Part shown: positions 19,277 to 61,147 of the stretch, in pieces
How the letters are laid out: the number at the start of each line of letters is the position of its first letter
How positions within the stretch are numbered: position 1 is the first letter of the stretch
Position numbers and translations under genes: made by a program
NCBI GenBank assembly: GCA_016932855.1
Contig: JAFGCB010000029.1
Coordinates: forward strand, 2,547 to 66,546
Source: Candidatus Omnitrophota bacterium
Lineage (GTDB): Bacteria; Omnitrophota; Gorgyraeia; Duberdicusellales; Duberdicusellaceae
Direction of reading: 5' to 3'
Length of the DNA: 64,000 nt
Notes under the pieces: generated by a model
Told to the model about the DNA's origin: nothing
Database searches by the model: none
The model's input: the letters and a program-made list of their open reading frames with translations, nothing else

Positions 19277-19278
19277 GT

Positions 19279-21770: not shown

Positions 21771-21772
21771 GT

Positions 21773-37205: not shown

Positions 37206-37715
37206 CTATTTTAACTTAGATTCCATGACCTTAATGTCTTCTTTTATTGCTTCAAGGTCTTCTTCGTGTTCGATTTCGTCTTCAAGGATTTTTAAGGCCA
37301 TATCATAGGTTACCGGGTCTTTTCCCTGGGTGTAATCCATTATTTTCTTATACTGGGTAATCGCGCACTGCTCCCCTTTTATATTCTGTTCAAGTAAGAC
37401 CCTTACATCAGGGTCATCCGGACGGTCATAACCGCAATTTGTTTGAGCTATCCACTCTTTTGGTTCCAGGAGAGGTTTTCCTCCCAGCTGGATAATCCGG
37501 TCAGCAACCATTCCTGCATGGCGCAGTTCATCAGCTGAGTGCTGGGTAAGCTCTGCTACTACTGCTTCTTTGGGCATTCCTACTGCGACTTTTGCTCCAA
37601 TCCAGTACTGGTAATAAGCCAGCCATTCATCAGCAAAAGCTTTATTGAGCATTTTGATTAATTCATTTACCTTTACCCCGAATGACTCCAGGATTTCTCT
37701 TCCCCTTGTCCCCAT
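37206..37715 (-). CDS. bfr: Bacterioferritin (ferritin-like di-iron protein).
   Basis: LNKAFADEWLAYYQYW...ELRHAGMVADRIIQLGG...ILEDEIEHEEDL aligns with Bfr ligand helices. Confidence 0.7.
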   Translation of the reverse strand: MGTRGREILESFGVKVNELIKMLNKAFADEWLAYYQYWIGAKVAVGMPKEAVVAELTQHSADELRHAGMVADRIIQLGGKPLLEPKEWIAQTNCGYDRPDDPDVRVLLEQNIKGEQCAITQYKKIMDYTQGKDPVTYDMALKILEDEIEHEEDLEAIKEDIKVMESKLK

Positions 37716-37999: not shown

Positions 38000-39271
38000 T
38001 CAGGATATGGATTTTACAAAAAGAGCGGTTAAAAAACCGGCTAAGGTTGACAGGCCCACCACAGCCCCGCCTTGTTCGAATGCTTCAGGAAGCATTGTTT
38101 CGGCAATCATTACAAGCATTGCCCCGGCTGCCATGCCTTCCAGTATTGCAATGCCGTTTAGGTGAAGATTCTGCAAGAATATGTTTCCGATAAAAGCTCC
38201 CAGGGCAGTCATAAGAGTTATAGAGCTCCACATCAAAAGAATCTTAAGCCCTGTATATTTTTGGTTTTTCATGATTACCGAGCTGGACATAGCTTCCGGA
38301 AGATTTGCCAGAAAAACTCCGGCTATAAGAGCCCAGGGAATAACCGTTTCCTTAGTAGCTATACCGATTACCAGGGATTCGGGTATTCCGTCTAAAAGTA
38401 TGCCTAACCAGATCCCTATGCCGGCCTGGCCGCCGGCTTTGGCAGCGTTTTCGATTTCAAGGCTGGTAGGAGTAAGATCCTGGCTTTTCAAAGAAGAGAC
38501 AGCTTCCTCTTTCCATTGCCTGGCTAGCTCCTTCGGTACAACTGATCTTTTACCAAGTTCGTCCCCTCTTTTGATAAGTAAATTTTCAAAGGATTTTTTA
38601 AGCTCCGGCGAGGCTTTAAGAAGTGCATTAAAATCGTTTTTAGAAATAAGAAAAAGAGTAGATTTTTTTGTGGCAATTGCCCGGGCGGTTCTGGGAGCGT
38701 TAGTTAAGAGGGCCATTTCTCCGAAAGTATCACCGCTGGTCCCTCTTGCTATGGATTTACCTTCTTTGAAAATTTCTACCTGGCCTTGGTCAATAATGTA
38801 AAGTGCTTCGGCCGGCGAATTTTCTTTAAAAATAAGCTCATTTTCCTCGAATACCCGTTCCTCAACAAGGGTAGCGAGCTTGGCAATATTTCTTGCCGGT
38901 AAAGCCTGTAATACAGGCACCTCGGCAAGGCGTTGAAGTATTTTCTCCGCTTTTTTTAGTTTCATTCTGGTGAGTTGCCGGATAACTGTCGCTCCTTTAC
39001 GAAAAAAGGCTCCCATGGAATTAAGCCCGTGATTTAGGAGCTCATAAAGTATGCCGCCGAGCAAGCACCCCAGGGCTAAAGGCATAAAGCCCACCAGATG
39101 AAAGGAGTGGGCAACGATTTCTATGGTAAGGGCAAAAAGCAGCGCTCCACCTCCAAAAGCCATAAAAGCCGAGGTGATTTTTGCATTTGGCTTAGCCGCC
39201 AGCCCTATAGCCGAACCTATAGGAAGGGAAACCGCGGAGAGAAAACCTACAAATAAAGCAATCAGGCTCAT
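38000..39271 (-). CDS. ZIP (ZupT-like) family metal transporter with a cyclic-nucleotide-binding domain inserted in the central cytoplasmic loop.
   Basis: TM regions with ZIP-like LLDGIPESLVIGIA, FLANLPEAM and C-terminal MLPEAFEQGGAVVGL. The insert has a cNMP-binding fold (FKENSPAEALYIIDQGQVEI...FGEMALLTNAPRTARAIA). Confidence 0.6.
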   Translation of the reverse strand: MSLIALFVGFLSAVSLPIGSAIGLAAKPNAKITSAFMAFGGGALLFALTIEIVAHSFHLVGFMPLALGCLLGGILYELLNHGLNSMGAFFRKGATVIRQLTRMKLKKAEKILQRLAEVPVLQALPARNIAKLATLVEERVFEENELIFKENSPAEALYIIDQGQVEIFKEGKSIARGTSGDTFGEMALLTNAPRTARAIATKKSTLFLISKNDFNALLKASPELKKSFENLLIKRGDELGKRSVVPKELARQWKEEAVSSLKSQDLTPTSLEIENAAKAGGQAGIGIWLGILLDGIPESLVIGIATKETVIPWALIAGVFLANLPEAMSSSVIMKNQKYTGLKILLMWSSITLMTALGAFIGNIFLQNLHLNGIAILEGMAAGAMLVMIAETMLPEAFEQGGAVVGLSTLAGFLTALFVKSIS

Positions 39272-39284
39272 ACCAACTCCTTTA

Positions 39285-39860
39285 TTATTTATTTTTGTAT
39301 TTAAGCCCTATATTCCAGGCTTTTGCTAAATGTTCTCCGACTTTGAAGTAGTTGTTGTCGTGCATTGAAAATAGAATTGGTTTAAGCTTTTGTATTTCGG
39401 GTAAGCCCTGGCTTAGGATTTGTTTTTGAGCGTAAGTTTGGATAATTTGTCCTATGAAAATTTCGGCATTACCGCTAAAATTTAAGGTCTCTACTAATTT
39501 GCACTCAAGGTTTAGGGGTGTTTCTTCTATCATCGGCGCTGTCTTTAGTTCGCCGTAGAATACCTTGAATAACTTTGATTTGTCGACTAACTTTCCGGAT
39601 TTTATCCCCACATAATCGGTAAGTTCCAGTAAATCTTCCGAGGGGATATTTACGCTGAATGTCCGGTTTTTCTTTATTCCGGAGTTGGTGTAATGCATTT
39701 TACCTAAGCCTATAGCAATCAGCGGCGGTGCATGCTGGACTATTCCGCAGTAGGCTATGGCAAGAAAGTTTGGTTTTTCGTTTACGTTGGCGCCTACTAT
39801 TGTAGTCGGCATCGGGTAAAGATAAGTGCCCGGGCCGATTTTTTTCTTATTTTCCTGCAT
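39285..39860 (-). CDS. Flavin reductase-like FMN-binding split-barrel protein.
   Basis: YLYPMPTTIVGANVNEKPNFLAIAYCG matches the flavin reductase domain. Confidence 0.6.
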   Translation of the reverse strand: MQENKKKIGPGTYLYPMPTTIVGANVNEKPNFLAIAYCGIVQHAPPLIAIGLGKMHYTNSGIKKNRTFSVNIPSEDLLELTDYVGIKSGKLVDKSKLFKVFYGELKTAPMIEETPLNLECKLVETLNFSGNAEIFIGQIIQTYAQKQILSQGLPEIQKLKPILFSMHDNNYFKVGEHLAKAWNIGLKYKNK

Positions 39861-39870
39861 TGGGTCGAGC

Positions 39871-40371
39871 TTACCAGTTTTCGTAATGGATGCGTTGCTG
39901 GTTATAGCGGCTTACGGGTTTCATCTCCTGGGCCGGGTGGCCGACCGGGATTATGGAAAAAGGAATGATATTTTCGGGTAGTTTAAATTGTTCTTTTATA
40001 TATTCAATTCTTTCTTTAAGCGGATAGACGCCTAACCAGACAGCGCCCAGGTTAAGTTCGGTTACCTCAAGCAGGATATTCTCGCTTGCCGCAGAGCAGT
40101 CTTGAACCCAGTAGCCCTGATGTTTATCAAGATTTAAATCCCCGCAGACTACAATAGCGCAGGGAGCGTCTTTTACCATTTTCGCGTAAGGGCTGGATTC
40201 GGCTAATTTTTGAAGGCCCCCTTTGTTTTTAATAACAATAAAATGCCAGGGCTGTTCGTTTCCGGCTGAAGGAGCGTTCATAGCGGCTTCTAAGATCTTT
40301 TTTATCAAATCATTACTTACCTCATCGCTTTTATACCTTCGTATACTTCTTCTTTTAAGGATCGCGTCCAC
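39871..40371 (-). CDS. Nitroreductase-family oxidoreductase.
   Basis: RRSIRRYKSDEVSNDLIKKILEAAMNAPSAGNEQPWHFIVI matches the nitroreductase N-terminal signature. Confidence 0.75.
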   Translation of the reverse strand: MDAILKRRSIRRYKSDEVSNDLIKKILEAAMNAPSAGNEQPWHFIVIKNKGGLQKLAESSPYAKMVKDAPCAIVVCGDLNLDKHQGYWVQDCSAASENILLEVTELNLGAVWLGVYPLKERIEYIKEQFKLPENIIPFSIIPVGHPAQEMKPVSRYNQQRIHYENW

Positions 40372-40554
40372 AGTTTACCTCCTCTTTTATGCTCACGAGA
40401 TTGTTGTGTATATTTTACAGTTTTTTAAACTGAATTCAAGCTGATTTACAGAGAGAATTTATCTTTAGCTTGGAATTTGGTAAATTAACCTTGAATTTAC
40501 TGGGGCTTAGGTTAAAATGTTTAACTACATACATTAAATACGGGAAATAAAGAT

Positions 40555-41283
40555 ATGTTTATTTTTATACGCTTATTTCTGGCTCATTTAGTAGGAGATT
40601 TTATTCTTCAATTCGATAATATTTACAGGCTTAAATACCGGGGTCTTACAGGGGTTATTCCTCATGTTTTGCTAATTATGGCCAGCATGGCTGTCTTTTC
40701 CTGGCCTTACCTTGTCCAACCCGGCCTTTGGATTTTTTTAGGTTTTATCGGGATTAGCCACCTTATTCAGGACTGGGTAAAGGCAAACCATATAAATATA
40801 AAAGACAATTTCTGGATTTATTTCCTCGACCAAGTTCTGCATGTCATAGCAATAAGCGTGGTTTTCTTGACCGGTCTTAAGGCTCTTAAGCCGCCCTCTT
40901 ATAATAATATTATAGTTTTGCTCTATAATAACGACTCTCTTTTCATATACGCTATTGCCGCAATTCTGGCCAGCTACAACGGGTTTTATATGGTTACCAA
41001 TTTCAAGAAAAGTTATCTTTCAGTGCAGTGCGCTTGTACGCCATTTGAAAAATGGTACGGTATCCTGGAGAGGTTTTTGATAGTTTCCTTGTTTTTTCTT
41101 GGCGGGGCTTACTTATTTTTTCTTTTAGTACTGGCGGTTTTTAGGCCCATAGCTTTTTCTCTTTTTAGAAAGAAGACGGCAATTGATGGGCGCTTTACAT
41201 CCTTTCGGGAGTTCGTTTTAAGCTGGTCAATCGCTCTTACTATAGGTACGATTCTTCGCTTAACCCTTAATTATCTTACCTAA
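40555..41283 (+). CDS. DUF3307-family membrane protein.
   Basis: N-terminal LAHLVGDFILQ motif. Polytopic. Confidence 0.5.
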   Translation: MFIFIRLFLAHLVGDFILQFDNIYRLKYRGLTGVIPHVLLIMASMAVFSWPYLVQPGLWIFLGFIGISHLIQDWVKANHINIKDNFWIYFLDQVLHVIAISVVFLTGLKALKPPSYNNIIVLLYNNDSLFIYAIAAILASYNGFYMVTNFKKSYLSVQCACTPFEKWYGILERFLIVSLFFLGGAYLFFLLVLAVFRPIAFSLFRKKTAIDGRFTSFREFVLSWSIALTIGTILRLTLNYLT

Positions 41284-41290
41284 AGTCTTA

Positions 41291-43558
41291 TTATTCTAAG
41301 CCGACTGCTTTATATATAGAAATTGGTTCTGTCTTGCCTTTTACTGAAATAGGCTCAAGTTTTTCGACTTTTACTTCGTCTTTAACCTGTTCGTAGGTAG
41401 AGTTGCTTATAATAATTTCGTTCTTTGCCGCGGCTGAACATAGCCTGGCTGCAAGGTTTACGTTATCCCCTATTACAGTATAATCCATCCGTTTTGAGGA
41501 GCCCATATTTCCTACAACAACATCACCGCTGTTTATGCCGATTCCTATCTGCAGGGGAGTTTTACCTTCTTCTATCCACTTGACTTGAAGTTTTTTTAGT
41601 TCCTCTTGCATTTCAATAGCTGTACGCACGGCCATAACCGCGTGATTTCTGATGTGCAGTTCGCTGGGGGCTCCCCAGAAAGCCATAAGTTCGTCTCCCA
41701 CAAATTTATCTAAGGTTCCGTTGTATTTAAAGACTACGTTTACCAGATTGTCAAGAATTTCATTGAGCATTGCTACGACTTCCTCCGGCTGATGGGATTC
41801 GGAAAAGCTGGTAAATCCTCTTACATCGGCGAAGAGAATGCTTAAGCTGCGTTTTTGCCCGCCTAATTTAAGCTTGGAGGGGTCGTTTATTAATTCATTT
41901 ATTACTTCCTGGGAAAGGTAGAAGCTGAAGGCTTGCTTTATCCAGAGTTTTTCTCTTTCTTCGGTAAAATAGCGAAAACCTATAATTCCGGAGAATCCGA
42001 AAATAACTATTCCTAAAGGTCCGACCAAATCTACCCAGAGCCCCAGTTTAGCAAAGGCCAGAAGAATCGACAGAAAATAACCACCGGCGTAAAAAATCGA
42101 GAGAATCAGGCTCCTCCATAGCCCCAGTAAAGCGCAGAGGCCGATAATCAGGGCAGTAAGAAAAAAAACAGCAGTATTTAAAAAGAAAGGAGCTTTAAAG
42201 AGGAATTTTTCAGTGAGGATTGTATTAATTAAGTTTGAGTGGGTCCCGACCATGGGGTAGCCGGTCTGCAGCGGAATAGGCGCTAAATCCTGGGTTCCGG
42301 TTGCGGTAAGGCCGACGATGCACACTTTGTCTTTTACCATTCCTGTAAGTTTCTCTTTTAGCTTGAGCTCTGAGTTTTTGAGGTAGTTAATTTCGGATTG
42401 GTTTAGGCCGGATTTTTCTTTTTCGCCGGCTATATAGGAGGATAATCGAGCCCTTATATCGTTAAGCTGTATTATAGAAGCGTAAGGCAGGTGCTTGAAG
42501 CAATCGCCCCAGCGGCCGGACCAGTTTACAAGCATGCAGCCCTGGCTGTCTACCGGTATTGCTATATCTTTAATCCCGGAATCCAAGCTTGCTTTCTTAA
42601 GCACCACTCTATCAGGTTTAAAGTCTACTTTCTCCACAGCCAATAGGTCCATAAGGGCTGAAATTGAAAGCTGGGGCAGTATGCTTTCTTGCTGCTTTAC
42701 AAAGAGGGGCACTCTGCGCATGACTCCGTCCAGGTCAGCGTCAGCGTTAACAAACCCGCTTCCAGCCAGAACGTTTGCGTATTTTTCGATAGGAGGAACA
42801 AGGCGGTCGTATCGTTTTGTGTAGGGCCAGGAGTCAGAGGAATATTTTTTTGCGAATTTTTTAATAAAAGACAAGGCTAGTTTATAGCTTTGGATATTTT
42901 CTCTTACATAGCTTTCTTCCTCGGCAAATAGGTACCAGTTTTTTTCCTCTTCTAGGCTGGTTAGAAGTTCTTCCAGGGATATATTAGGCTTTTCGAAAAC
43001 CGCTTCTTCTATGGCTTTATCCATGAGGTAGTGTTTTGTTGCAAGGAATTTTTCTTCAAGTACCCGGGGGCTTACCTTAAGAGAGCTTGCTGCCTCTTCC
43101 AGGGACATGGTGATATCATTTTTTAAGAGCATTTCCAGTTCTTTAAAAGATTGAGTTTGTCTTTCGGCAAAGTAAAAAGCAAGATAAGTTTTTTCTGAAT
43201 TTGATATTGCTTCTTTAAAAAGTTCATCGTCCTGGATTTTTTCGCTTAACGTTTCGGTAAAAAGAATATCCATAATAATCTGTTTGGCCCCGCATTCAGT
43301 AAGAATATTAACTAAATCGGCATGGTATCTTCGCGGCCAGGGCCATCTGCCGAGTTTTGCAAGGCTGACATCATCTATATCAATATGGATTAGGGGCGTT
43401 TTTGGTTTATTCCGGGGGCTTAAGGTAAAGCGTAAATCAAGGGCTTTAAGTTCAAGAATTTGGTAGGTTTTCGTAGGGCAAAGCAAAAGGAAGATAATAC
43501 TTAAGAGGAAGGTTATGGTCCAGCCGACAATTAATTTTTTCAGATTTTTTTTCTGCAC
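41291..43558 (-). CDS. CHASE2 sensor domain - class III adenylate/guanylate cyclase.
   Basis: N-terminal TM + CHASE2 region, multi-TM segment, C-terminal cyclase core LSILFADVRGFTSFSE...KFVGDELMAFWGAP...GDVVVGNMGS. Confidence 0.8.
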   Translation of the reverse strand: MQKKNLKKLIVGWTITFLLSIIFLLLCPTKTYQILELKALDLRFTLSPRNKPKTPLIHIDIDDVSLAKLGRWPWPRRYHADLVNILTECGAKQIIMDILFTETLSEKIQDDELFKEAISNSEKTYLAFYFAERQTQSFKELEMLLKNDITMSLEEAASSLKVSPRVLEEKFLATKHYLMDKAIEEAVFEKPNISLEELLTSLEEEKNWYLFAEEESYVRENIQSYKLALSFIKKFAKKYSSDSWPYTKRYDRLVPPIEKYANVLAGSGFVNADADLDGVMRRVPLFVKQQESILPQLSISALMDLLAVEKVDFKPDRVVLKKASLDSGIKDIAIPVDSQGCMLVNWSGRWGDCFKHLPYASIIQLNDIRARLSSYIAGEKEKSGLNQSEINYLKNSELKLKEKLTGMVKDKVCIVGLTATGTQDLAPIPLQTGYPMVGTHSNLINTILTEKFLFKAPFFLNTAVFFLTALIIGLCALLGLWRSLILSIFYAGGYFLSILLAFAKLGLWVDLVGPLGIVIFGFSGIIGFRYFTEEREKLWIKQAFSFYLSQEVINELINDPSKLKLGGQKRSLSILFADVRGFTSFSESHQPEEVVAMLNEILDNLVNVVFKYNGTLDKFVGDELMAFWGAPSELHIRNHAVMAVRTAIEMQEELKKLQVKWIEEGKTPLQIGIGINSGDVVVGNMGSSKRMDYTVIGDNVNLAARLCSAAAKNEIIISNSTYEQVKDEVKVEKLEPISVKGKTEPISIYKAVGLE

Positions 43559-43711
43559 AATCTTGCGAAGGTGATTTTATTATTGAGTCTGAGTCTGCTT
43601 AGGGTTGTAAGCAAATAGCACCGCGTTGATCAGAAAAAAATAAAATGAGGAAATAATCTCTGTAAACGCTCTTATGTTTTTAGCTTTAGAGAAGACTTTT
43701 TAAGGCCCCGG

Positions 43712-44713
43712 CTAGAAGGTGTAATAGGCGCTCAAGGAACACATTGAGCCGGAATATCTTGCCAGGGGTTCGTTTGACCAATTTTGCCGATAGGAGTAGT
43801 TCAATCCGATGGTAAAATTTTCGGTCAGGTTGTAATAGAGCCCGGCAGAGCCTGTATAGGTTCTGTCCCATTCTGCGCTTCCCGGATCCAGAGCCAGAGT
43901 ACGGTCGCAGTAACTGCGGAATCTTCTTGAAAAAGATAAATAGCCAAACAAATCTTCGCTGAAAAGGTGGGTTAAGGATGCGGTTGTGTTGTAGTTATGG
44001 TAGTCATAGAAGTGTACGAAAAGGTCATTAGAATTATTATAGTAATATTCAAAAGTAAGTTTTAATAAATCGTTGGTGAAGAATTTTCCTAGTTCATAAG
44101 TGGCGGTTTGCCTTAAGTCTTCCCGGACGTCGTCGGCGAGAGCGCCGAAGAAATCCCTTGCTTTTCTTTCTTCATAAAACCTGAACATAAGCTCATATCC
44201 CAAGCTGTGGTAGAAATTGTCGGGAAGGTCATGTTTGCATTTAAACTCAATACTGTGATCATAAAAATCATCAATATCGGTATCGAAGTAGCTGGTTATC
44301 CCAAAGCGGTAATTGGTCATAAAGGCTACATCTTCTTTCATGTCAACTTCCAGCCCTGCCCGTATTTCATTACGCATTAGGCTAAGTTCATCAGCATCGT
44401 AATAGTGAAAATTCATAATTTGGTGTTCAAGTATCCCGTCGGTTTTTTTATTTATAGCAGTGGTAAGCCGGCTTCTTAGGAAGACTTGGGTAAAGCCGTC
44501 TCTTTTACGTTCAGGATTAAGCCGGGCGTTGTTGTCGTATCCTTGAGTAAGGCCAAGGGTAAAATCATAGTCGCCCTCGGTAAAGAAGAGACCGATTTTA
44601 TCAAAGTAGTAGGGAGTATCGGAATAGGCCGGGACATCCCTTTCTTTAGCGAAACAGGAAAAGCAGAATAAGAACATAAGGAAAACCACGAAAAAACTCT
44701 TAAATTTGTTCAT
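43712..44713 (-). CDS. Outer-membrane beta-barrel protein of unknown function.
   Basis: Start revised to ATG 44713 (AAGGAGG at -6; MNKFKSFFVVFLMFLFCFSCFA signal). Alternating amphipathic strands. C-terminal ...SAYYTF. Confidence 0.5.
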   Translation of the reverse strand: MNKFKSFFVVFLMFLFCFSCFAKERDVPAYSDTPYYFDKIGLFFTEGDYDFTLGLTQGYDNNARLNPERKRDGFTQVFLRSRLTTAINKKTDGILEHQIMNFHYYDADELSLMRNEIRAGLEVDMKEDVAFMTNYRFGITSYFDTDIDDFYDHSIEFKCKHDLPDNFYHSLGYELMFRFYEERKARDFFGALADDVREDLRQTATYELGKFFTNDLLKLTFEYYYNNSNDLFVHFYDYHNYNTTASLTHLFSEDLFGYLSFSRRFRSYCDRTLALDPGSAEWDRTYTGSAGLYYNLTENFTIGLNYSYRQNWSNEPLARYSGSMCSLSAYYTF

Positions 44714-44808
44714 TATGCCTCCTTGTATATTGTAGCACAAGACCTTTTTTAGTCTTTTTAGCACTACCGTACTTAAAATCTAAAGAATTTCAAAAGATTC
44801 TAACTTAC

Positions 44809-45597
44809 CTAAGGCATGCTGTCGGTGCAGCCAATCGACTCTTCTTGCTTTAGCTCGTCAGTTAAGTCTTTAATCTCGTCAAGATCCTTTATTTTTTCCT
44901 GTACGTCATTTGCCTTTTTGAATTTATCGGACCGGCCGGCTTTCTTATCTTTTCTTGGTTTCTGTTTGGTCCGTTCGGTTACTTCTTCTTTAACGTCATT
45001 CCAGCGGTTCATTTCTCTATCGGTAAGGCCCATTAGTTCGCTGGGCCGTTTAAAGCGTTCAATCATAGTCTTGAATCCTTCATTGAGAATAATTTCTGTT
45101 ATGAGGTTTTTAGCTTCATCAAAAGCTTTTACAAAGACAGAATCTTCATAGCAGGCTACTTCATCTTGGTTTTCCTGGCTGTCTACGCTCCAGCCTGTTC
45201 CTCTGACTCCGGCTACCGCGCTGGGCGTGGAAACTTCGAAAGTAAGGCCTGATTGCACGGTCGCTATATCGGCGTAGATTTTACCGTGCGAAAGATCGAG
45301 CCGGTTAATCTGGCCCGGGGAGGTAGAATCAAGAAGGAGAAGTGTTTTTTCCTCTAGCCGGATAAGGTTTCTTTTGCCGTCGTCAACAGCGATGTCGGCT
45401 TTTGAATTTCTGGCTGTTCGTACGCTGTCCCCGATATCAAGAGGCATGCCGGTTTTTGCTCTTTTCCACACACCTTCTTTAGAATATTGCAGTTCGACAT
45501 TTCCCTTAGTGTAGACGATTTCGGCTGCTTTTAATGTGGCAATAAAGAAAAGCCCGATAAAAAGCACCATTAGAAGGACTAGAAAACTTTTTTTCAT
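44809..45597 (-). CDS. Periplasmic FecR-domain protein with a charged C-terminal tail.
   Basis: Signal peptide. KGNVELQ...WKRAKTGMPLDIGDSVRTARNSKADIAVDDG matches the FecR domain. Confidence 0.55.
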   Translation of the reverse strand: MKKSFLVLLMVLFIGLFFIATLKAAEIVYTKGNVELQYSKEGVWKRAKTGMPLDIGDSVRTARNSKADIAVDDGKRNLIRLEEKTLLLLDSTSPGQINRLDLSHGKIYADIATVQSGLTFEVSTPSAVAGVRGTGWSVDSQENQDEVACYEDSVFVKAFDEAKNLITEIILNEGFKTMIERFKRPSELMGLTDREMNRWNDVKEEVTERTKQKPRKDKKAGRSDKFKKANDVQEKIKDLDEIKDLTDELKQEESIGCTDSMP

Positions 45598-45746
45598 GAT
45601 TCTGTCTCCTTTTTTGCTATGCCGAATTTAAATATTATACCCTGTCCAGGTTTGGGTATGTACTAAGTCTATGATATAAAACAAGTTTTTGTCTGTCAAC
45701 AAAAAAAACCAAAAAATATGAAGGTTTTTTAAACCTCCGGATGCGT

Positions 45747-46421
45747 TCAGTCTTTATTATTGATTTTAGACGAAAAGTAATTGATAAAAAGAAGGATAAA
45801 TAATATAAAAATAATCAGCTGAAATATTACTACCACTTGGCCCAGGCCGGGCTTGGGGTAATATTCACCGAATCCCAGAGTAGTGTTGGTGACAAAGCTG
45901 AAATATACGACCGAAAGCGCAGGCAGTTTTTCATTTAAAAGGTCAAGGCCTAAATAGATGATTGAAAAATCCAAAACCACCTCGATATAATTTAGAAAAA
46001 GAAATAGTAACGAGCGCCTGTATGATAGGGTAGCCGGATAGACGTCAGACAAAAATATTAAACTTAAGATATTAAATATCGTTTCACTCAGCAAATAGAC
46101 GATAAGGATGATTGCGACAGGGTAGCGGTACAGGCCTGACGCGATTACAAAAACCGGCAAAAATAATTTAAGTATAATGTAAAATTCGACAGAAAGTTTT
46201 CTTGCAAGGCTTGAGAACTTGCCGGATATGTTTTTTACCAGCAGAGTCGGGTAGATAAAGTGGATGAGGCACAAAAATATGCGAAATATTCTCTCAAGGC
46301 CGTAGGTTTTGTCGTTCCAAATTTCTTTTAAGGAGCGCAACTGCTGAGTATAGGCGTTTATAGTTTTTTCGTTGCTTAGGGCCTCATATGATACGATTAT
46401 TTTTTTAAAGAATTTAAGCAT
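45747..46421 (-). CDS. Ion-channel family membrane protein (2TM pore-loop type) with an atypical TLGFGE selectivity filter.
   Basis: YFSFVTNTTLGFGEYYPKPGLGQVVVIFQLIIFILF parallels the K+-channel pore helix/filter (TVGYGD) and inner helix. N-terminal extension with extra TMs. Confidence 0.5.
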   Translation of the reverse strand: MLKFFKKIIVSYEALSNEKTINAYTQQLRSLKEIWNDKTYGLERIFRIFLCLIHFIYPTLLVKNISGKFSSLARKLSVEFYIILKLFLPVFVIASGLYRYPVAIILIVYLLSETIFNILSLIFLSDVYPATLSYRRSLLFLFLNYIEVVLDFSIIYLGLDLLNEKLPALSVVYFSFVTNTTLGFGEYYPKPGLGQVVVIFQLIIFILFILLFINYFSSKINNKD

Positions 46422-46470
46422 TTTTCCCCCCGCTGTTTACGATCTTTAGAAATCAGCGATTATTGCGTCT

Positions 46471-48216
46471 TTAAAAATGAAAGTCGTACATGACTTGAAC
46501 CCAGTTATGCTTTCGTTTATTGTCGGAAGGAGGCGCGCCCAAAGGCCAGCCGATATCATATCTTATACTAAAGTCGTTTATTTTAAAACGGAAACCGCAC
46601 CCGGCAGATTTTAAATTCGCTCTTCTTGCCTCATTGTTTCTGGGTTTTCTTACCCAAACATAGCCATAGTCATAAATTGCAAAAAGCTGCAAGGCTTTAT
46701 GCCATTTTGTCTCGGTAAAAGGAACATTCCAATTTTTCGGGATGATATAGGGCGGAAATAATAAACCTGCATTCACGCTGCAACCCGAATCTCCCAACAG
46801 CTCGGCCCGGGGGTAACCCCGGTTATCAGAGATGCCGTGCACACCGCCGATGCTGAACCTGTTAGCGCCGGGTAGGACATCGGTAGAGATCTCAAATTGG
46901 GGCTTCAGCAGAAGTTGAAGGTCGCCAAAGAGTTTTTGTCTGCGGGCTATGTATATACGATTATATACCCAATTACCGGTCATGCCAGGCATGCAGGCGC
47001 GTTCATCGATATCATGGCGTAAGCCTTGCCAGATATCCGGGATACTGATCTCCATATCGCTGGAAATAATCGTACGTCCATAATCATCAGTCGTATCAAA
47101 ATTGAAATGCGAGTATACGGCGCGTACTCTTTCCCGGCACATATACTCACGCATTACAAACATATTAACATCTTTATATATAAAACCCAAAGCAGCGCTG
47201 AGGTCGGTTTTCTCTTCTTCGATAAAGTGGTAATGAAGAAGAAACCAGGTTTTATAACTCCTTTTCTCCATAAGGAATAGTCTTTTTTTTCCGCAGTAAT
47301 GTTCTTCTTTAACCAAACCATAAAAATCAAATTTCAACCTTTCGCCTATAGGCAGGGTATAGTACATAATTGCTATATCTTGGTCTCGTGAAGGCCCCCT
47401 GCGATAATCGTAGAAAATTAAGGAATCATCGTGTCCGGTGAAATTATTATGCATGCCGACTAGCCTGTAGCGCCTGTATTCTGTGCTGGGGGAGTTATAA
47501 TTATTGAATTCATATATAAGATGTATGGGTAGGCGGTCTTTTACTTTAAGGACAATATCGGTAAATCCCGGCTTTTGTCCGGGTTTAACTATTACTTTTA
47601 TCTTTCGGTCAGGATGTTTGTTGAGTTTATGTATGTATTTGCGCAATATATGACCGTTGAAGGGGTCCGCTTCTTTTAAGCCAATCCTTTCCCTGATAAA
47701 ATCTTCTTTAAAATGTTTGTTGCCTTCTATCGTTATTTCTCCTACAAATCCTTCTCGGACCTTGAGTTCCAACTCCTCTTTATCAAATTCCTGTATGGGG
47801 ACAAATGCCCGGGATGTAGGATAGCCTTCTTTATAATAGAGATTTGAAATCTGGTCGGCAATTTCCTGCATTTGTTTTAAGGAAAGTTCTTTATTTTCAT
47901 AGGGCTTAGTAATTTCTCTGACTTCTTCTTGGGAGATAAAAGTTACACCCTTTACGTTAATTCTTTTGATGAAGATTCTTTCTCCGGGAAGCGAAGGAAG
48001 TTTCTCTTCTTCTTTTACAATCTGCTCGATTACTATTTCAGCAGGCGTTGGTTCTCTTTCTTGGAGTTTCTTTTCCATCTCAATAGCCATCTGGGATTCG
48101 TCGTCACCAAACTGAGCAATAAGCGATATAGGCCGACAGATAAGGAAATTTAAAAAGACCAGAACAAAGACTAATTTTTTAATTATATTTGTGCTATTTG
48201 TGGCAAACATAACCAT
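46471..48216 (-). CDS. TpsB/ShlB/FhaC-family outer-membrane transporter (POTRA + beta-barrel).
   Basis: ERIFIKRINVKGVTFISQEEVREITKPYENKELSLKQMQEIADQISNLYYKEGYPTSRAFVPIQEF...LELKVREG is a POTRA_2-type domain. C-terminal beta-barrel ends ...VMYDFHF. Confidence 0.7.
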   Translation of the reverse strand: MVMFATNSTNIIKKLVFVLVFLNFLICRPISLIAQFGDDESQMAIEMEKKLQEREPTPAEIVIEQIVKEEEKLPSLPGERIFIKRINVKGVTFISQEEVREITKPYENKELSLKQMQEIADQISNLYYKEGYPTSRAFVPIQEFDKEELELKVREGFVGEITIEGNKHFKEDFIRERIGLKEADPFNGHILRKYIHKLNKHPDRKIKVIVKPGQKPGFTDIVLKVKDRLPIHLIYEFNNYNSPSTEYRRYRLVGMHNNFTGHDDSLIFYDYRRGPSRDQDIAIMYYTLPIGERLKFDFYGLVKEEHYCGKKRLFLMEKRSYKTWFLLHYHFIEEEKTDLSAALGFIYKDVNMFVMREYMCRERVRAVYSHFNFDTTDDYGRTIISSDMEISIPDIWQGLRHDIDERACMPGMTGNWVYNRIYIARRQKLFGDLQLLLKPQFEISTDVLPGANRFSIGGVHGISDNRGYPRAELLGDSGCSVNAGLLFPPYIIPKNWNVPFTETKWHKALQLFAIYDYGYVWVRKPRNNEARRANLKSAGCGFRFKINDFSIRYDIGWPLGAPPSDNKRKHNWVQVMYDFHF

Positions 48217-48295
48217 ATTTTCTTTTTCGAAACCTTAAACCGGACAACGCTTTCAAAAGTTGAAAGTTCTTTAGGTTTAAGATATCATTTTTATT

Positions 48296-48769
48296 TTACT
48301 CTGTTGTTGTTTTTTTCACAACCCTTATTTGCAATATTCCTTCTTTAAAGTTCTGCACGGGAATGTAAGCACGCGACAGGAGATAACCTTTTTTATGATA
48401 CGCTTCAGTGACACTGTCAGCAATTTTTTGTATTTGCTTTAAAGAAAACTCTTTATTTTCGTACGCGGAAGTAATATCCTTTATTTCTTTTTCAGTAATA
48501 ATGCCTGCTCCGGTTAGTCTAATTTTTTTAATCAGGATTTTTTCTTCAAAGGAAGGAAAATCTAGTTCTTTTTCGGTCAGTGTTTCCTCAGGTTCTTCTT
48601 CTTGCTTAAAAAACAGCTCTTCTTCCTTGTTCTTAAAAAGAAACTGCTTTACTATTGCCTCTTCTTCTTGGGTTTCCTCAAAACAGTCAGTACATTGGCT
48701 AAAAAGCGGCATATTGACACAACTAGCTGTAAGAGTTAGTGATAGGACCAGGATGGTTTTTCTGAGCAT
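48296..48769 (-). CDS. Stand-alone POTRA-domain lipoprotein, a partial tandem duplicate of the TpsB 5' region.
   Basis: KILIKKIRLTGAGIITEKEIKDITSAYENKEFSLKQIQKIADSVTEAYHKKGYLLSRAYIPVQNF aligns with the TpsB POTRA. Nucleotide similarity 48440-48500 vs 47860-47920. Confidence 0.55.
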   Translation of the reverse strand: MLRKTILVLSLTLTASCVNMPLFSQCTDCFEETQEEEAIVKQFLFKNKEEELFFKQEEEPEETLTEKELDFPSFEEKILIKKIRLTGAGIITEKEIKDITSAYENKEFSLKQIQKIADSVTEAYHKKGYLLSRAYIPVQNFKEGILQIRVVKKTTTE

Positions 48770-48782
48770 AAATTTTCTTAGT

Positions 48783-50195: not shown

Positions 50196-50287
50196 ACCAT
50201 TTTCCTTTTTTCTTTCTATTTGGGCAAATTTATTACAGATTAGTTTAGAGCACTTAGTTGTGAGTCAGACGATTTTTTCTTCGCGTT

Positions 50288-58008: not shown

Positions 58009-58101
58009 AAAACCTCCTTTTAAATTAGTTTTGACAAACGCGATTTTTTCATTTAATGATACTTATCCGGCCCCACCGTATAAGATATACGAATTTCCAT
58101 G

Positions 58102-58884: not shown

Positions 58885-58925
58885 TAGTTACCTCCTTTTA
58901 CCTAAATTTAAAAAATAACGAAATT

Positions 58926-59262
58926 TCACTTATCATCCTTCCAGGGGAAATCGGTTTTAATAGGGCTAAATATATCAATAGCCTCAGTCTGGCCCACTGC
59001 GGTAAATTCATGCGGGACGTCCGGCGGAATAAAATACGCATCCCCTTCTTTAAGCATTTCTTCTCTGTCGCCGATAAGCATTTTAAAACCGCCTTTTATG
59101 ACATAGCCGAATTGTTCCTGAGAATGGGTATGAAGTTTTACCACGCTTCCGTCGGCCATGTCCCAGTGCTGAGCGTTCATTTTCTGGCATTCTCCCAGAT
59201 ACTGGCGGATAACCCCTCCGCCCATATCATGCTTCTTTAATTTTCCTCTAAAAACAAACATT
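58926..59262 (-). CDS. Cupin-domain protein.
   Basis: Start revised to ATG 59262 (AAGGAGGTG at -5). HTHSQEQFGYVIKGGFKMLIGDREEMLKEGDAYFIPPDVPHEF is cupin_2 motifs. Confidence 0.6.
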
Positions 59263-59395: not shown

Positions 59396-59965
59396 CTATT
59401 TCTTCGCGGCCAGCATCTCAATTATCTTTTTAGCAAACAAATGGCAGTGCCCTCCTGAGCGGGCAGTTACCAGGTCGTCATCGACTACCACGTCTTCATC
59501 TACGTATACCGCGCCCATATTCTTCGCGTCTCCCAAGAGATTGTTATGAACTACTAATTTTCTTCCCTTGATTACTTCGGCAATAGGCGCCATAAGCCAT
59601 AGCCCATGGCAGATAATCCCTTTTATAATATTTTTTTCCCCGAAGGCTCTTTTCATAAGCTCAACTGCCGGGGATATCTTTTTTACATCCTCGGTGTATC
59701 TTAATCGGTCAGCTACTATGCCGGCCGGCACGATTATAGCTGAATAGCTTTTAAGGGTTGCATCGTCGATATTCTCCAAACTTTCGTGACATTCAAAAGG
59801 AATATGATATTCATGTCCTTTAAAGGTTAAAGAGGTTTGGCCCCACATCCGGGTTAAAAAATGCACATCAGCGCCTTCTTCGGCGAATCTAAACTTGTAA
59901 TACCAAATTTCCGGTTCGTAAAAATCAGCTTCCATTAATATGGCGATTTTCTTACCTTTAAGCAT
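59396..59965 (-). CDS. PfpI/DJ-1 family intracellular protease/amidase-like protein.
   Basis: KKIAILMEADFYEPE...GIICHGLWLM (Cys-His nucleophile elbow). Confidence 0.65.
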   Translation of the reverse strand: MLKGKKIAILMEADFYEPEIWYYKFRFAEEGADVHFLTRMWGQTSLTFKGHEYHIPFECHESLENIDDATLKSYSAIIVPAGIVADRLRYTEDVKKISPAVELMKRAFGEKNIIKGIICHGLWLMAPIAEVIKGRKLVVHNNLLGDAKNMGAVYVDEDVVVDDDLVTARSGGHCHLFAKKIIEMLAAKK

Positions 59966-61146
59966 TATTCCCCCTTCCCTTTGTAGCGCATAGTAAGCAT
60001 GGTAATGTCATCAGACTGGGGTTCATCCTCGGCGAATTCGTGTATTTGCCGGCGGACTTCGGCCACAATATCTTTTAGGTCTTTATCTTTTAAACCCGAC
60101 ATGCAGTTTTTTAAGCGTTCGTCCGAAAAAAGTTGATGTGCCGGATTCATGGCTTCAGTCACCCCGTCAGTATAGATAAATATTGAATCGCCTGGTTCGA
60201 GTTTCAAGCAGCGGCTCTCGAATTTAGCCTCAGGCATAACTCCCACCACGCAGGCACTATGAACATCTAAGTAGTCAAAGTCTTTATTGTTTACTGAAAT
60301 TAAGGGCGGATTATGGCCGCCGTTGGAATAGCAAAGACTGCCGTTTTCAAAATCAAGAACCGCGTAAAAAAGTGTAACAAACATGCAATTGTCATTATCG
60401 GGGAAAAGTATCTTATTTGTCCTAAAGAGGGCTTCGTCAGGGTCGCACCCGGTTAGAGCCTGGGTTTTTAGAACGGCTTTACTTATGGCCATAAAAAGCG
60501 CTGCCGGGACTCCTTTGCCTGAGACGTCGCCTATAAGAAAACCTAATTTATTTTCGCCGATAAGAAAGAAATCGAAGAAATCACCTCCTACTTCCCGGGC
60601 CGGATCCATGGTTGCGAATATTTCAAATTCCTTTCTTTCGGGAAAAGGCGGAAATATCCGGGGAAGCATGCTGGTTTGAATCCGCTGGGCGATTCTCAGT
60701 TCGCTCTTGATGCGTTCCTTGGCTTCTGTCTCCTTCCGCAAGTTTTCGACAAAGCGCTCGAAACTTACATACATCAGATTAAGGACGAGAGCTGTATCCT
60801 TCTGGCATAACCCGACTAGTTCATTCTTGCTTAGGGTATATACCTCTAAATCCTCCGCGCAGACGGCTGAAGCCATCCTCTGTTTAGAAGGAGAAAAAAT
60901 TCCCATCTCGCCTATAACCTGTCCTTTGCCTACCGTTTTATTGATCTCTATTAATTTTATCGAACCTGTGTCTATATAAAACATCTTGTCAGCCTTATCT
61001 CCGGCTTTGAAAAGAGCGTCTCCTTTTTTATAGGTTTCTTTCTTCATGTAAGAAAGAGGCCATTTAAAAGATTCGTATCCTTTTTCCTGATTTTGCTTTT
61101 TTGATTGGGAAGGATTATCCATGGCAATTTCCTTTCTATCTAGCAA
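59965..61146 (-). CDS. Cyclic-nucleotide-binding domain - PP2C (SpoIIE/RsbU-type) Ser/Thr phosphatase.
   Basis: N-terminal cNMP fold (FKAGDKADKMFYIDTGSIKLIE...IGEMGIF...RMASAVCAE). C-terminal PP2C DVSGKGVPAALFMA...NGGHNPP...YTDGVTEA. Confidence 0.7.
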   Translation of the reverse strand: MLDRKEIAMDNPSQSKKQNQEKGYESFKWPLSYMKKETYKKGDALFKAGDKADKMFYIDTGSIKLIEINKTVGKGQVIGEMGIFSPSKQRMASAVCAEDLEVYTLSKNELVGLCQKDTALVLNLMYVSFERFVENLRKETEAKERIKSELRIAQRIQTSMLPRIFPPFPERKEFEIFATMDPAREVGGDFFDFFLIGENKLGFLIGDVSGKGVPAALFMAISKAVLKTQALTGCDPDEALFRTNKILFPDNDNCMFVTLFYAVLDFENGSLCYSNGGHNPPLISVNNKDFDYLDVHSACVVGVMPEAKFESRCLKLEPGDSIFIYTDGVTEAMNPAHQLFSDERLKNCMSGLKDKDLKDIVAEVRRQIHEFAEDEPQSDDITMLTMRYKGKGE

Positions 61147-61147
61147 C

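What the first reader, a model, noticed from the sequence alone, without database searches (positions are those of the whole stretch)
38000..43558. cNMP-gated ZIP-family transporter next to a CHASE2 adenylate cyclase
The 423-aa transporter has ZIP-family TM motifs, but the usual metal-ligand His residues in TM4/TM5 are replaced (DGIPES, NLPEAM). Its central cytoplasmic loop is replaced by a complete cyclic-nucleotide-binding domain. A CHASE2 sensor adenylate cyclase lies about 2 kb upstream on the same strand. A cNMP-binding PP2C phosphatase in the partner-switching module lies about 17 kb away.

This suggests a cAMP/cGMP circuit that directly gates a ZIP-type permease, possibly one with altered substrate specificity. 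That arrangement is uncommon and, as far as I recall, uncharacterised.
Basis: partly seen in the sequence, partly recalled or inferred. Interest (0 to 1): 0.6.

Follow-up and report, generated by a model that had tools for sequence, protein, structure and literature searches.

The report
ZIP metal transporter with built-in cAMP sensor
The gene encodes a real, widespread and apparently unstudied kind of ZIP metal transporter that carries a cyclic-nucleotide sensor in its main cytoplasmic loop and has no histidines in its metal site, but the adenylate cyclase next to it is not a conserved partner.

Summary
Window 38000-39271 (-) encodes a 423-aa protein with three TM helices, a complete cyclic-nucleotide-binding domain (CNBD), then five TM helices. 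Pfam finds cNMP_binding and Zip. A family profile of TM4-8 hits only BbZIP in the PDB. A CNBD-less family member models as the full BbZIP fold.

The fusion is not a chimera. At least 502 species genomes from many bacterial phyla encode it, and one member comes from a eukaryote transcriptome.

The metal site is remodelled across the family. Only three BbZIP ligand positions keep a carboxylate: H177->D294, E181=E298 and E211=E326. A new invariant acidic residue, E/D51, sits in TM2. The second metal site appears lost. In 151 single-CNBD members the cNMP-contact residues are kept (Glu 151, Arg 134).

Best reading: a cAMP-regulated ZIP-type divalent-cation importer, with the CNBD bridging the scaffold helix TM3 and the transport helix TM4. 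The substrate is probably not zinc-typical.

The proposed circuit with the CHASE2 cyclase is weak. The cyclase is adenylate-specific, but it belongs to its own conserved cassette. Only 1 of 80 other loci has a cyclase within 10 kb. I found no paper on the fusion.

The parts
38000..39271 (-). ZIP-CNBD gene, 423 aa: TM1-3, CNBD, linker, TM4-8
   Evidence: ORF. Pfam cNMP_binding and Zip. AF2 model with pLDDT 84.8 and 3+5 TM helices. Identical to an NCBI Omnitrophica MAG protein.
38996..39271 (-). TM1-TM3 (aa 1-92). Includes the TM2 motif FGGGALLFALTIE with the invariant acidic residue E51, and the juxtamembrane G87-x-F89-x-R91-K92.
   Evidence: Conservation. TM2 aligns to BbZIP 91-109, so L44=M99 and E51=S106 (a weak, targeted comparison).
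38552..38959 (-). Cyclic-nucleotide-binding domain (aa ~105-240) inserted in the TM3-TM4 cytoplasmic loop
   Evidence: Pfam 3e-20. PDB sequence hits to PKG, PKA-R and HCN CNBDs. Foldseek hits to the same folds.
38678..38725 (-). Phosphate-binding cassette FGEMALLTNAPRTARA (aa 183-198), with canonical Gly-Glu and Arg-Thr-Ala
   Evidence: Translation. In 151 single-CNBD family members: Gly 147, Glu 151, Arg 134, Ala 141.
38426..38551 (-). Conserved helical linker from the CNBD C-helix to TM4 (aa 241-282; W253, P268 and E272 conserved)
   Evidence: W253 in 119/120, P268 in 111/120, E272 in 96/120. Helices 247-263 and 270-279 in the model.
38003..38425 (-). TM4-TM8 (aa 283-423), the ZIP core with the transport site
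   Evidence: The family profile hits only BbZIP, residues 172-304, E=1e-8. Pfam Zip matches 53 of 71 members of the TM4-8 alignment.
38375..38392 (-). TM4 motif DGIPES. D294 replaces BbZIP H177, G295 replaces N178, E298 equals E181.
   Evidence: D294, P297 and E298 are invariant.
38288..38305 (-). TM5 motif NLPEAM. A322 (just before the motif) replaces Q207, N323 replaces D208, E326 equals E211.
   Evidence: N323 and E326 are invariant.
39285..39860 (-). Flavin reductase-like gene, 13 nt upstream of the ZIP-CNBD gene; probably co-transcribed
   Evidence: Pfam Flavin_Reduct 1.7e-23. A homologue lies next to the ZIP-CNBD gene in the closest relative, L087.
39871..40371 (-). Nitroreductase-family gene, the first gene of the putative three-gene operon
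   Evidence: Pfam Nitroreductase 3e-27. Adjacent to the ZIP-CNBD gene in L086 and L087. Also next to the cyclase-DUF3307 pair in L090 and L091.
37206..37715 (-). Ferritin-like gene, 284 nt downstream of the ZIP-CNBD gene; adjacency not conserved
   Evidence: Pfam Ferritin 4.2e-27. Found in 0 of 80 loci and absent from L086-L088.
41291..43558 (-). CHASE2 class IIIb adenylate cyclase, part of a separate conserved cassette
   Evidence: Pfam. Best PDB match is P. aeruginosa CyaB, 9e-46, with Lys in DKFVGD and Thr in MDYTVIG as in CyaB and CyaC. The cassette is conserved in L090-L092.
40555..41283 (+). DUF3307 membrane protein, convergent with the cyclase; conserved partner of the cyclase
   Evidence: Pfam DUF3307. 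Same position and orientation in L090, L091 and L092.
43712..45597 (-). Porin-like BBP2_2 protein (43712-44764) and FecR-domain protein (44809-45597), directly upstream of the cyclase
   Evidence: Pfam. The same pair precedes the cyclase in L091 and L092, and FecR precedes it in L090.
59965..61146 (-). Second cNMP receptor in the window: cNMP_binding plus SpoIIE (PP2C) phosphatase in a partner-switching cluster
   Evidence: Pfam SpoIIE 2.3e-50 and cNMP_binding 4.3e-15. Neighbouring HAMP-SpoIIE gene and two small ORFs read by eye as RsbW-like and STAS-like, without a Pfam scan.

Best explanation
The gene encodes a member of a large, distinct clade of ZIP (SLC39-type) elevator transporters. In this clade the cytoplasmic TM3-TM4 loop has been replaced by a ligand-competent cyclic-nucleotide-binding domain.

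Proposed mechanism: TM3 belongs to the static scaffold domain and TM4 to the mobile transport domain. The CNBD is tied to TM3 through its N-terminal helix and to TM4 through its C-helix and a conserved linker. It would therefore act as a cAMP-dependent clamp on the relative movement of the two domains. Binding of cAMP repositions the C-helix and switches divalent-cation import on or off.

The transport site is remodelled into a histidine-free, probably mononuclear, all-oxygen site made of D294, E298 and E326, plus a new TM2 carboxylate, E51. This points to a harder cation such as Fe2+, Mn2+, Mg2+ or Ca2+ rather than a classical Zn2+ site.

cAMP comes from the cell's pool. The adjacent CHASE2 adenylate cyclase is one possible source but not a dedicated partner.

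Shown here: the domain architecture, ZIP homology and fold, the residue substitutions and their conservation, conservation of the CNBD ligand-contact residues, the wide distribution, and the absence of conserved neighbours.

Inferred: that cAMP is the ligand, the direction of regulation, the coupling mechanism and the substrate.
For: - Architecture: Pfam cNMP_binding and Zip. The AF2 model has 3 TM helices, the CNBD, then 5 TM helices, with pLDDT 84.8.
- ZIP homology: a TM4-8 family profile hits only BbZIP in the PDB (E=1e-8), with the P-E motifs in register. The CNBD-less member P0147 is 45% identical to the window protein. Its model matches BbZIP over its full length (TM-score 0.62-0.70; all nine top hits are BbZIP; the next hit has E=0.14).
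- Site remodelling is family-wide: D294, E298, N323 and E326 are invariant and position 51 is always E or D. All 145 representative clusters have motifs fitting the loose patterns D-x-x-P-E-x (TM4) and/or x-N-x-P-E-x (TM5). About 112 were scored on both motifs, and the commonest forms are DGxPES/DAxPES and SNxPEA/ANxPEA.
- BbZIP ligand roles, the primacy of the M1 site, the TM1/4/5/6 transport domain versus the TM2/3/7/8 scaffold domain, the swing of the cytoplasmic end of TM4 away from TM3, and the S106-Q207 contact all come from PMC9873690. Here S106 corresponds to E51 and Q207 to A/S322.
- CNBD competence: in 151 single-CNBD members Gly is kept in 147, Glu in 151 and Arg in 134.
- Coupling elements are conserved: G87, F89, R91 and K92 after TM3, and W253, P268 and E272 before TM4.
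- A cAMP source exists: the cyclase has the Lys and Thr specificity residues of CyaB and CyaC.
- The fusion is real and ancient: at least 502 species genomes, 710 clusters at 50% identity with E<=1e-10, and CNBD-less forms nested inside CNBD-bearing ones.
Against: - There is no experimental datum for any member.
- The TM1-3 profile alone finds nothing in the PDB. The E51=S106 mapping rests on a 10-bit targeted alignment.
- cAMP versus cGMP cannot be decided from sequence. The residue after the Arg varies (S, T or V), and the best PDB sequence hits are PKG domains.
- The ~610-aa two-CNBD sister class has degenerate cassettes (Arg to His, Glu lost). Nucleotide binding is therefore not universal in the clade, and the domain might work structurally.
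- The substrate inference from ligand chemistry is soft. The rare CNBD-less members carry a His-rich loop typical of Zn/Fe ZIPs.
Confidence: 0.62

Rival explanations
1. One reading: the CHASE2 adenylate cyclase 2 kb upstream is the dedicated signal source. An envelope signal sensed by CHASE2 (with FecR and the porin-like protein) is converted to cAMP that gates this particular ZIP, forming a local sensor-effector module.
For: - Both genes are on the same strand, 2.0 kb apart.
- The cyclase has adenylate-specific residues and the CNBD is ligand-competent.
- The nitroreductase gene is next to the ZIP-CNBD gene in L086 and L087 and next to the cyclase-DUF3307 pair in L090 and L091. The two blocks therefore share a junction gene in this lineage.
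- One Leptospirales locus (L068) has a cyclase directly upstream of its ZIP-CNBD gene.
Against: - Only 1 of 80 species loci has a cyclase within 10 kb. This is roughly what chance gives for genomes with several cyclases (my estimate, not computed).
- No gene family apart from generic ones (ABC ATPases in 16 loci, sigma-54 activators in 11) recurs near the transporter.
- Three Omnitrophota genomes carry the same cyclase cassette without a ZIP-CNBD gene within 8 kb.
- Loci for homologues at 60-63% identity (P0008, P0009, P0012) have unrelated neighbours.
- A gene on the opposite strand (DUF3307) separates the two transcription units in the window.
- The single-sequence phmmer search may have missed divergent cyclases.
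Confidence: 0.15
2. The CNBD does not sense cAMP or cGMP here. It is a structural or differently liganded regulatory module, like the CNBD-homology domains of CNNM/CorC or KCNH channels. The protein would then be a ZIP regulated by something else (metal, another nucleotide or a partner protein), or constitutive.
For: - In the two-CNBD class, both cassettes have His in place of Arg and lack the Glu (43 sequences).
- One such protein gives a faint Pfam hit to the CNNM2 CNBH domain.
- CNBD loss is tolerated in rare members such as P0147.
Against: - The window protein belongs to the single-CNBD class. In that class the ribose-contacting Glu is kept in 151 of 151 and the phosphate-contacting Arg in 134 of 151. 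Its cassette, FGEMALLTNAPRTARA, is canonical.
- Such conservation is hard to explain without nucleotide binding.
Confidence: 0.13
3. The ZIP-like domain no longer transports. The protein is a membrane-anchored cAMP receptor, or it conducts something other than a divalent metal (for example protons or monovalent cations) through the remodelled pathway.
For: - Five of the eight BbZIP metal-centre residues lose their ligand chemistry: M99 to L, N178 to G, Q207 to A, D208 to N and E240 to T. A sixth, H177 to D, changes from an imidazole to a carboxylate ligand.
- Pfam Zip scores are only modestly above threshold.
Against: - The three carboxylates at the primary M1 site (D294, E298, E326) and the helix-breaking prolines are invariant across bacteria and eukaryote-like members. 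The small-residue motifs of TM2 and TM7 that form the sliding interface are also conserved.
- This pattern indicates purifying selection on a working cation site.
- A cluster of buried carboxylates fits a divalent cation best.
Confidence: 0.08

Closest known systems
BbZIP (Bordetella bronchiseptica ZIP, PDB 5TSA/5TSB/8GHT) and the GufA-type ZIPs (ZupT, ZIP11)
   Same: - Eight-TM ZIP fold, with a 3+5 helix arrangement around the cytoplasmic TM3-TM4 loop.
- Paired x-x-x-P-E-x motifs in TM4 and TM5, and the AAGAM...P-E motif in TM7.
- BbZIP is the only PDB family hit by the TM4-8 profile and by the model of a family member.
- Presumably the same elevator mechanism.
   Different: - No histidine in the metal centre: H177 becomes D.
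- The second metal site (M2) appears lost: N178 to G, D208 to N, E240 to T. M99 becomes L and Q207 becomes A/S.
- There is a new invariant TM2 carboxylate at the S106 position.
- A 140-residue CNBD (or two) replaces the short or His-rich loop.
- No NCBIfam ZIP model, ZupT included, matched at E<=0.01.
Human ZIP7 (activated by CK2 phosphorylation in its cytoplasmic loop) and ZIP4 (metal-sensing TM3-TM4 loop)
   Same: ZIP activity is regulated through a cytoplasmic loop. For ZIP7 the held literature reports phosphorylation of S275/S276 (PMC6796783 and PMC5451890). That these serines and the ZIP4 sensing region lie in the TM3-TM4 loop is from my own knowledge of the field.
   Different: Regulation there works by covalent modification or metal binding to a disordered loop. 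Here a folded second-messenger receptor domain is built into the loop.
SLC9C1 (sperm Na+/H+ exchanger with a voltage sensor and CNBD)
   Same: A secondary-active elevator-type transporter regulated by an attached CNBD that binds cAMP. Structures exist, for example 8xq5, which appeared. Reviews were found.
   Different: The transporter fold is unrelated (NhaA type). The CNBD is C-terminal rather than inserted between the scaffold and transport helices. It is eukaryotic and also has a voltage-sensor domain.
Bacterial CNBD-gated channels (MloK1, SthK) and CNBD-bearing MscS-like channels
   Same: - Bacterial membrane transport proteins with a canonical cAMP-type CNBD.
- The family's cassette consensus, FGEMALLTG-x-PR[ST]A[TS]A, is very close to MloK1's, as I recall it.
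- Foldseek lists SthK and MloK1 CNBDs among the hits.
   Different: Those are channels with a C-terminal CNBD acting on a pore gate. This is a carrier with the CNBD inserted mid-chain.

Membership tests
ZIP (Zrt/Irt-like, SLC39, Pfam PF02535) | Significant match to the ZIP sequence profile | tested here: met
   Pfam Zip gives E=8e-12 and 45.5 bits against a cut-off of 35.1, with no other transporter family. Zip matches 53 of 71 TM4-8 fragments of relatives.
ZIP (Zrt/Irt-like, SLC39, Pfam PF02535) | Eight-TM fold of BbZIP, with 3+5 helices around a cytoplasmic loop | tested here: met
   The window model has 3+5 TM helices. The model of CNBD-less relative P0147 matches BbZIP with TM-score 0.62-0.70, and all nine top hits are BbZIP. 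The window protein's own TM domain could not be searched alone.
ZIP (Zrt/Irt-like, SLC39, Pfam PF02535) | Conserved TM4 and TM5 metal-binding motifs with His/Asn/Asp plus Glu (H-N-x-P-E-G and [HQ]-[ND]-x-P-E-G) | tested here: inconclusive
   The P-E cores and both Glu residues are kept in register. However, His becomes Asp in TM4, and the TM5 first position becomes Ala/Ser. The motif is recognisably ZIP but variant.
ZIP (Zrt/Irt-like, SLC39, Pfam PF02535) | Binuclear metal centre (M1 plus M2) as in BbZIP | tested here: not met
   The M2 ligands N178, D208 and E240 correspond to G295, N323 and T355. Only M1-type carboxylates remain. M2 is not essential in all ZIPs, so this does not exclude membership.
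ZIP (Zrt/Irt-like, SLC39, Pfam PF02535) | Transport of divalent transition metals into the cytoplasm | not testable with these tools
   Needs uptake assays.
ZupT / GufA subfamily equivalogs (NCBIfam) | Match to a curated ZupT-type model | tested here: not met
   NCBIfam returned only CNBD-driven hits and no ZIP model at E<=0.01.
Cyclic-nucleotide-binding domain (PF00027), ligand-competent type | Beta-roll fold with flanking helices | tested here: met
   Pfam 3e-20. Foldseek hits to PKG, HCN, PKA-R, SthK and MloK1 CNBDs with probability 1.00.
Cyclic-nucleotide-binding domain (PF00027), ligand-competent type | Phosphate-binding cassette with Gly-Glu and Arg-[ST]-Ala | tested here: met
   The cassette is FGEMALLTNAPRTARA. 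In 151 single-CNBD relatives Glu is kept in 151 and Arg in 134.
Cyclic-nucleotide-binding domain (PF00027), ligand-competent type | Measured binding of cAMP or cGMP | not testable with these tools
   Needs a binding assay.
Class III adenylate cyclase (the neighbouring gene) | Catalytic metal Asp pair, transition-state Asn/Arg, and adenine-specifying Lys plus Asp/Thr | tested here: met
   The domain aligns to CyaB (3r5g, 9e-46) and CyaC. It has FADVRGF and FVGDE (Asp residues), DKFVGD (Lys), MDYTVIG (Thr) and GDNVNLAARL (Asn, Arg). The guanylate cyclase Cya2 (2w01) has Glu at the Lys position.
Dedicated cyclase-effector gene pair | Conserved genomic linkage between cyclase and effector across genomes | tested here: not met
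   A cyclase lies within 10 kb in 1 of 80 loci. The cyclase cassette occurs without a ZIP-CNBD gene in L090-L092.

The most novel reading that the evidence does not exclude
This clade would be the first natural ligand-gated ZIP. cAMP binding to a domain that bridges the scaffold helix TM3 and the transport helix TM4 would directly start or stop the elevator movement. The histidine-free, all-carboxylate mononuclear site would carry Fe2+ or Mn2+ (or Mg2+/Ca2+) rather than Zn2+. In this Omnitrophota lineage it would work with the co-transcribed flavin reductase and nitroreductase, and possibly the ferritin-like gene, as a second-messenger-controlled iron-handling unit.
Probability: 0.2. Interest if true: 0.75.

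Novelty: new variant of a known kind. Interest (0 to 1): 0.58.

Why it matters
How ZIP transporters are switched on and off is poorly understood. The cytoplasmic TM3-TM4 loop is implicated in human ZIP4 and ZIP7, but it is disordered and hard to study.

A large natural clade that has a folded, small-molecule-binding domain at that exact position would give a tractable system, bacterial and about 430 aa long. It could be used to trap ZIP conformations with and without ligand, and to test how movement of TM4 relative to TM3 is controlled.

It would also add metal (or other divalent-cation) import to the short list of processes that cAMP controls directly at the protein level in bacteria. It further shows a ZIP lineage that has given up histidine ligands, which bears on how ZIP selectivity is set.

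The family is found in many uncultured phyla, including abundant marine and groundwater groups, and apparently in protists. The biology would therefore be broad, not a curiosity of one genome.

Tried and rejected
- Assembly chimera: rejected. The same architecture appears in the top 120 homologues and in at least 502 species genomes.
- TM domain from another transporter family: rejected.
- Single-sequence search of TM4-8 against the PDB: only a spurious de novo design hit. The family profile was needed.
- TM1-3 profile against the PDB: no hit.
- Conserved neighbours: phmmer with the window's cyclase, CHASE2, ferritin, flavin reductase, nitroreductase, DUF3307, porin-like and FecR proteins against ORFs of 80 loci, plus all-vs-all clustering. 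Nothing specific recurred. The only recurrent families were generic: ABC ATPases in 16 loci and sigma-54 activators in 11.
- A CNBD-less ancestral sister clade: not found. The few CNBD-less proteins (P0147 and four others) are nested among CNBD-bearing ones at 63-84% identity, so they are secondary losses. Most short hits are gene fragments.
- Promoter and terminator scans: counts equal to shuffled expectation, so uninformative.
- Rfam: nothing near the locus.
- Literature: six searches combining ZIP, ZupT or Pfam accessions with CNBD terms found no paper on the fusion. The library lacks most subscription journals.

Full report
**1. What is in the sequence**

- ORF 38000-39271 (-) encodes 423 aa. 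Pfam gives cNMP_binding (aa 139-220, E=3e-20) and Zip (aa 270-403, E=8e-12, 45.5 bits against a gathering score of 35.1) and nothing else.
- ORF 41291-43558 (-) encodes 755 aa with CHASE2 and a class III cyclase domain.
- Between them lie a flavin reductase-like gene (39285-39860, -), a nitroreductase-family gene (39871-40371, -) and a DUF3307 membrane protein on the other strand (40555-41283, +).
- A ferritin-like gene (37206-37715, -) follows the transporter after 284 nt.
- The motifs DGIPES and NLPEAM and the cassette FGEMALLTNAPRTARA translate from 38375-38392, 38288-38305 and 38678-38725.
- The distant cNMP-binding PP2C is real. ORF 59965-61146 (-) has cNMP_binding and SpoIIE. Next to it are a HAMP-SpoIIE gene and two small ORFs that I read by eye as RsbW-like and STAS-like, without a Pfam scan.
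- The exact protein is in NCBI as a 'cyclic nucleotide-binding domain-containing protein' from a Candidatus Omnitrophica MAG, on a 70.9-kb contig.

**2. The TM domain is ZIP**

- A single-sequence PDB search with TM4-8 found nothing meaningful.
- A profile of TM4-8 from 71 family members hit only BbZIP entries (5tsa, 6pgi, 7z6m, 8ght, 8j1m). The E-value was 1e-8 over BbZIP residues 172-304, with the P-E motifs in register.
- An AlphaFold model of the window protein (pLDDT 84.8, pTM 0.68) shows three TM helices, a long helix, a beta-roll domain, two linker helices and five TM helices.
- I therefore modelled P0147, a 295-aa family member that lacks the CNBD and is 45% identical to the window protein. 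Its nine best PDB matches are all BbZIP, with TM-score 0.62-0.70 normalised to the query and up to 0.82 normalised to the target. The tenth hit has E=0.14.

**3. The metal site is remodelled, and uniformly so**

PMC9873690 lists the BbZIP binuclear centre as M99, H177, N178, E181, Q207, D208, E211 and E240, with M1 as the primary transport site. The alignments give the following mapping.

| BbZIP residue | Window protein |
|---|---|
| M99 | L44 |
| H177 | D294 |
| N178 | G295 |
| E181 | E298 |
| Q207 | A322 (Ser or Ala in the family) |
| D208 | N323 |
| E211 | E326 |
| E240 | T355 |
| H275 | E391 |

- D294, P297, E298, N323 and E326 are invariant in 82-120 homologues.
- All 145 cluster representatives from the exhaustive search have motifs fitting the loose patterns D-x-x-P-E-x and/or x-N-x-P-E-x. 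About 112 were scored on both motifs. The commonest forms are DGxPES/DAxPES and SNxPEA/ANxPEA.
- A new acidic residue, E51 (always Glu or Asp), sits in TM2 at the position of BbZIP S106 (a weak, targeted alignment).
- PMC9873690 reports that S106 and Q207 covary and approach each other in the outward-facing model. The change from S...Q to E/D...A/S therefore looks like a ligand moved from TM5 to TM2. This is inference.
- Net result: a histidine-free, probably mononuclear, all-oxygen site, with M2 apparently lost.

**4. The CNBD looks functional in this class**

- In 151 single-CNBD family members the cassette keeps Gly in 147, Glu in 151, Arg in 134 and Ala in 141. The window protein has all four.
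- Junction residues are also conserved: G87, F89, R91 and K92 after TM3, and W253, P268 and E272 before TM4.
- The ~610-aa class has two CNBDs. In both, Arg is replaced by His and the Glu is lost. What those domains bind is unexplained.

**5. Distribution**

- The word-indexed search found at least 1698 relatives, and all of the top 120 have the fusion.
The labels include Gemmatimonadota, Spirochaetota, Desulfobacterota, Myxococcota, Gammaproteobacteria (including SAR86), Planctomycetota, Bacteroidota, Acidobacteriota, Elusimicrobiota, Rokubacteria and many candidate phyla.
- An exhaustive HMMER search with TM4-8 gave 710 clusters (50% identity) at E<=1e-10 and 71 at E<=1e-30.
- Forms of 700-930 aa also carry CNBD and ZIP domains. 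One of them comes from a EukProt transcriptome.
- The rare CNBD-less forms have CNBD-bearing proteins as nearest relatives at 63-84% identity, so they are secondary losses.
- The fusion is therefore ancient and common, not 'uncommon'.

**6. The cyclase link**

- The cyclase is an adenylate cyclase by its residues. It is closest to P. aeruginosa CyaB (9e-46) and has the Lys of DKFVGD and the Thr of MDYTVIG, as in CyaB and CyaC. The guanylate cyclase Cya2 has Glu at the Lys position.
- Linkage is not conserved. In 80 loci from other species (up to 10 kb each side) a cyclase homologue occurs once (L068, Leptospirales). Ferritin and flavin reductase never occur, and nitroreductase occurs once. Unbiased clustering finds no specific recurrent neighbour. 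Only generic ABC ATPases (16 loci) and sigma-54 activators (11 loci) recur.
- Loci for homologues at 60-63% identity also differ.
- Orthologous cyclases (54-60% identity) in three Omnitrophota genomes sit in the same cassette as in the window. The cassette is FGE-sulfatase, ShlB/POTRA, Ion_trans_2, FecR, porin-like protein, CHASE2 cyclase and DUF3307 on the opposite strand, usually followed by the nitroreductase. None has a ZIP-CNBD gene within 8 kb.
- In the two closest ZIP-CNBD relatives (72% and 67% identity) the nitroreductase, and in one case the flavin reductase, directly precedes the transporter. Those contigs end there.
- The cyclase therefore belongs to its own envelope-signalling cassette. 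The transporter belongs to a small lineage-specific operon with two flavoenzymes, and the two blocks abut in this genome.

**7. Mechanism**

- Shown: the architecture, the fold, the residues and the conservation.
- Established for BbZIP: TM1/4/5/6 slide as a transport domain against the TM2/3/7/8 scaffold. The cytoplasmic end of TM4 swings away from TM3 and TM7 when M1 empties (PMC9873690).
- Inferred: a CNBD spliced between TM3 and TM4 is placed to restrain or release exactly that movement. In CNBDs the C-helix moves on ligand binding, and here it leads through a conserved linker into TM4. I therefore propose cAMP-dependent control of the elevator cycle.
- The sign of the regulation is unknown.
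- The all-oxygen site suggests a harder cation than zinc. The flavin reductase, nitroreductase and ferritin context hints at iron, but only in this lineage.

**8. Known relatives and novelty**

- The closest structure is BbZIP.
- The closest regulatory analogues are ZIP7 (loop phosphorylation; PMC6796783), SLC9C1 (a CNBD on an elevator-type exchanger) and the bacterial CNBD channels MloK1 and SthK.
- Six literature searches found no description of a ZIP-CNBD protein. The library is incomplete.
- I rate it a new variant of a known kind. It is present in the databases under generic names, is widespread, and appears to be uncharacterised.

Noticed in passing
window 1-16443 (-): A stop-free reading frame of at least 5039 codons runs from 15117 off the left end of the window, so this is a giant protein. 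Upstream are a 346-aa ORF (15272-16312) and a c-di-GMP-I-GGC riboswitch (RF03167, 60.2 bits against a gathering score of 59) at 16362-16443. This suggests c-di-GMP control of the giant gene.
   Followed up: no
window 40555-51841; L090, L091, L092: A cassette conserved in Omnitrophota: FGE-sulfatase-like genes, a ShlB/POTRA (TpsB-type) transporter, a small Ion_trans_2 channel, a FecR-domain protein, a BBP2_2 porin-like protein, the CHASE2 adenylate cyclase and a convergent DUF3307 gene. The order is the same in three other genomes. It looks like a trans-envelope signalling unit feeding a cyclase.
   Followed up: partly
P0035-P0119 (~610-aa class), e.g. P0063 from Candidatus Scalindua japonica: A sister class has two tandem CNBDs in the ZIP loop. 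In both, the phosphate-binding Arg is replaced by His and the Glu is lost (43 sequences). It is probably not a canonical cNMP binder, and its ligand is unknown.
   Followed up: partly
P0183, P0206, P0215, P0224, P0229, P0258: ZIP-CNBD proteins of 700-930 aa share the D-A-[IV]-P-E-S and S-N-L-P-E-[SA] motifs. P0183 comes from a EukProt transcriptome, so the family seems to extend to microbial eukaryotes.
   Followed up: partly
P0147 (295 aa) and P0278-P0280, P0316: Rare family members have lost the CNBD and carry a short His-rich loop (HLRKHQEHPRHEKLPEH) instead. They are nested among CNBD-bearing proteins.
   Followed up: yes
window 59965-63530 (-): A partner-switching cluster: a cNMP_binding-SpoIIE phosphatase, a HAMP-SpoIIE phosphatase, a 133-aa ORF that looks RsbW-like and a 106-aa ORF that looks STAS-like (both read by eye, no Pfam scan). 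This would be a second cAMP output in the same window.
   Followed up: partly
window 57223-59965 (-): Three DJ-1/PfpI-family genes (57223-58008, 58102-58884, 59396-59965) sit just downstream of the PP2C genes. A 141-aa ORF (58926-59351) lies between the second and third.
   Followed up: no
window 23926-26817 (-) and 17981-22615 (-): An autotransporter with a calcineurin-like phosphoesterase passenger domain (963 aa), and a secretin / T2SS-C-like / AAA / TPR cluster.
   Followed up: no
L068 8262-11263: In one Leptospirales MAG a class III cyclase ORF lies directly upstream of the ZIP-CNBD gene. This is the only such case among 80 loci.
   Followed up: no
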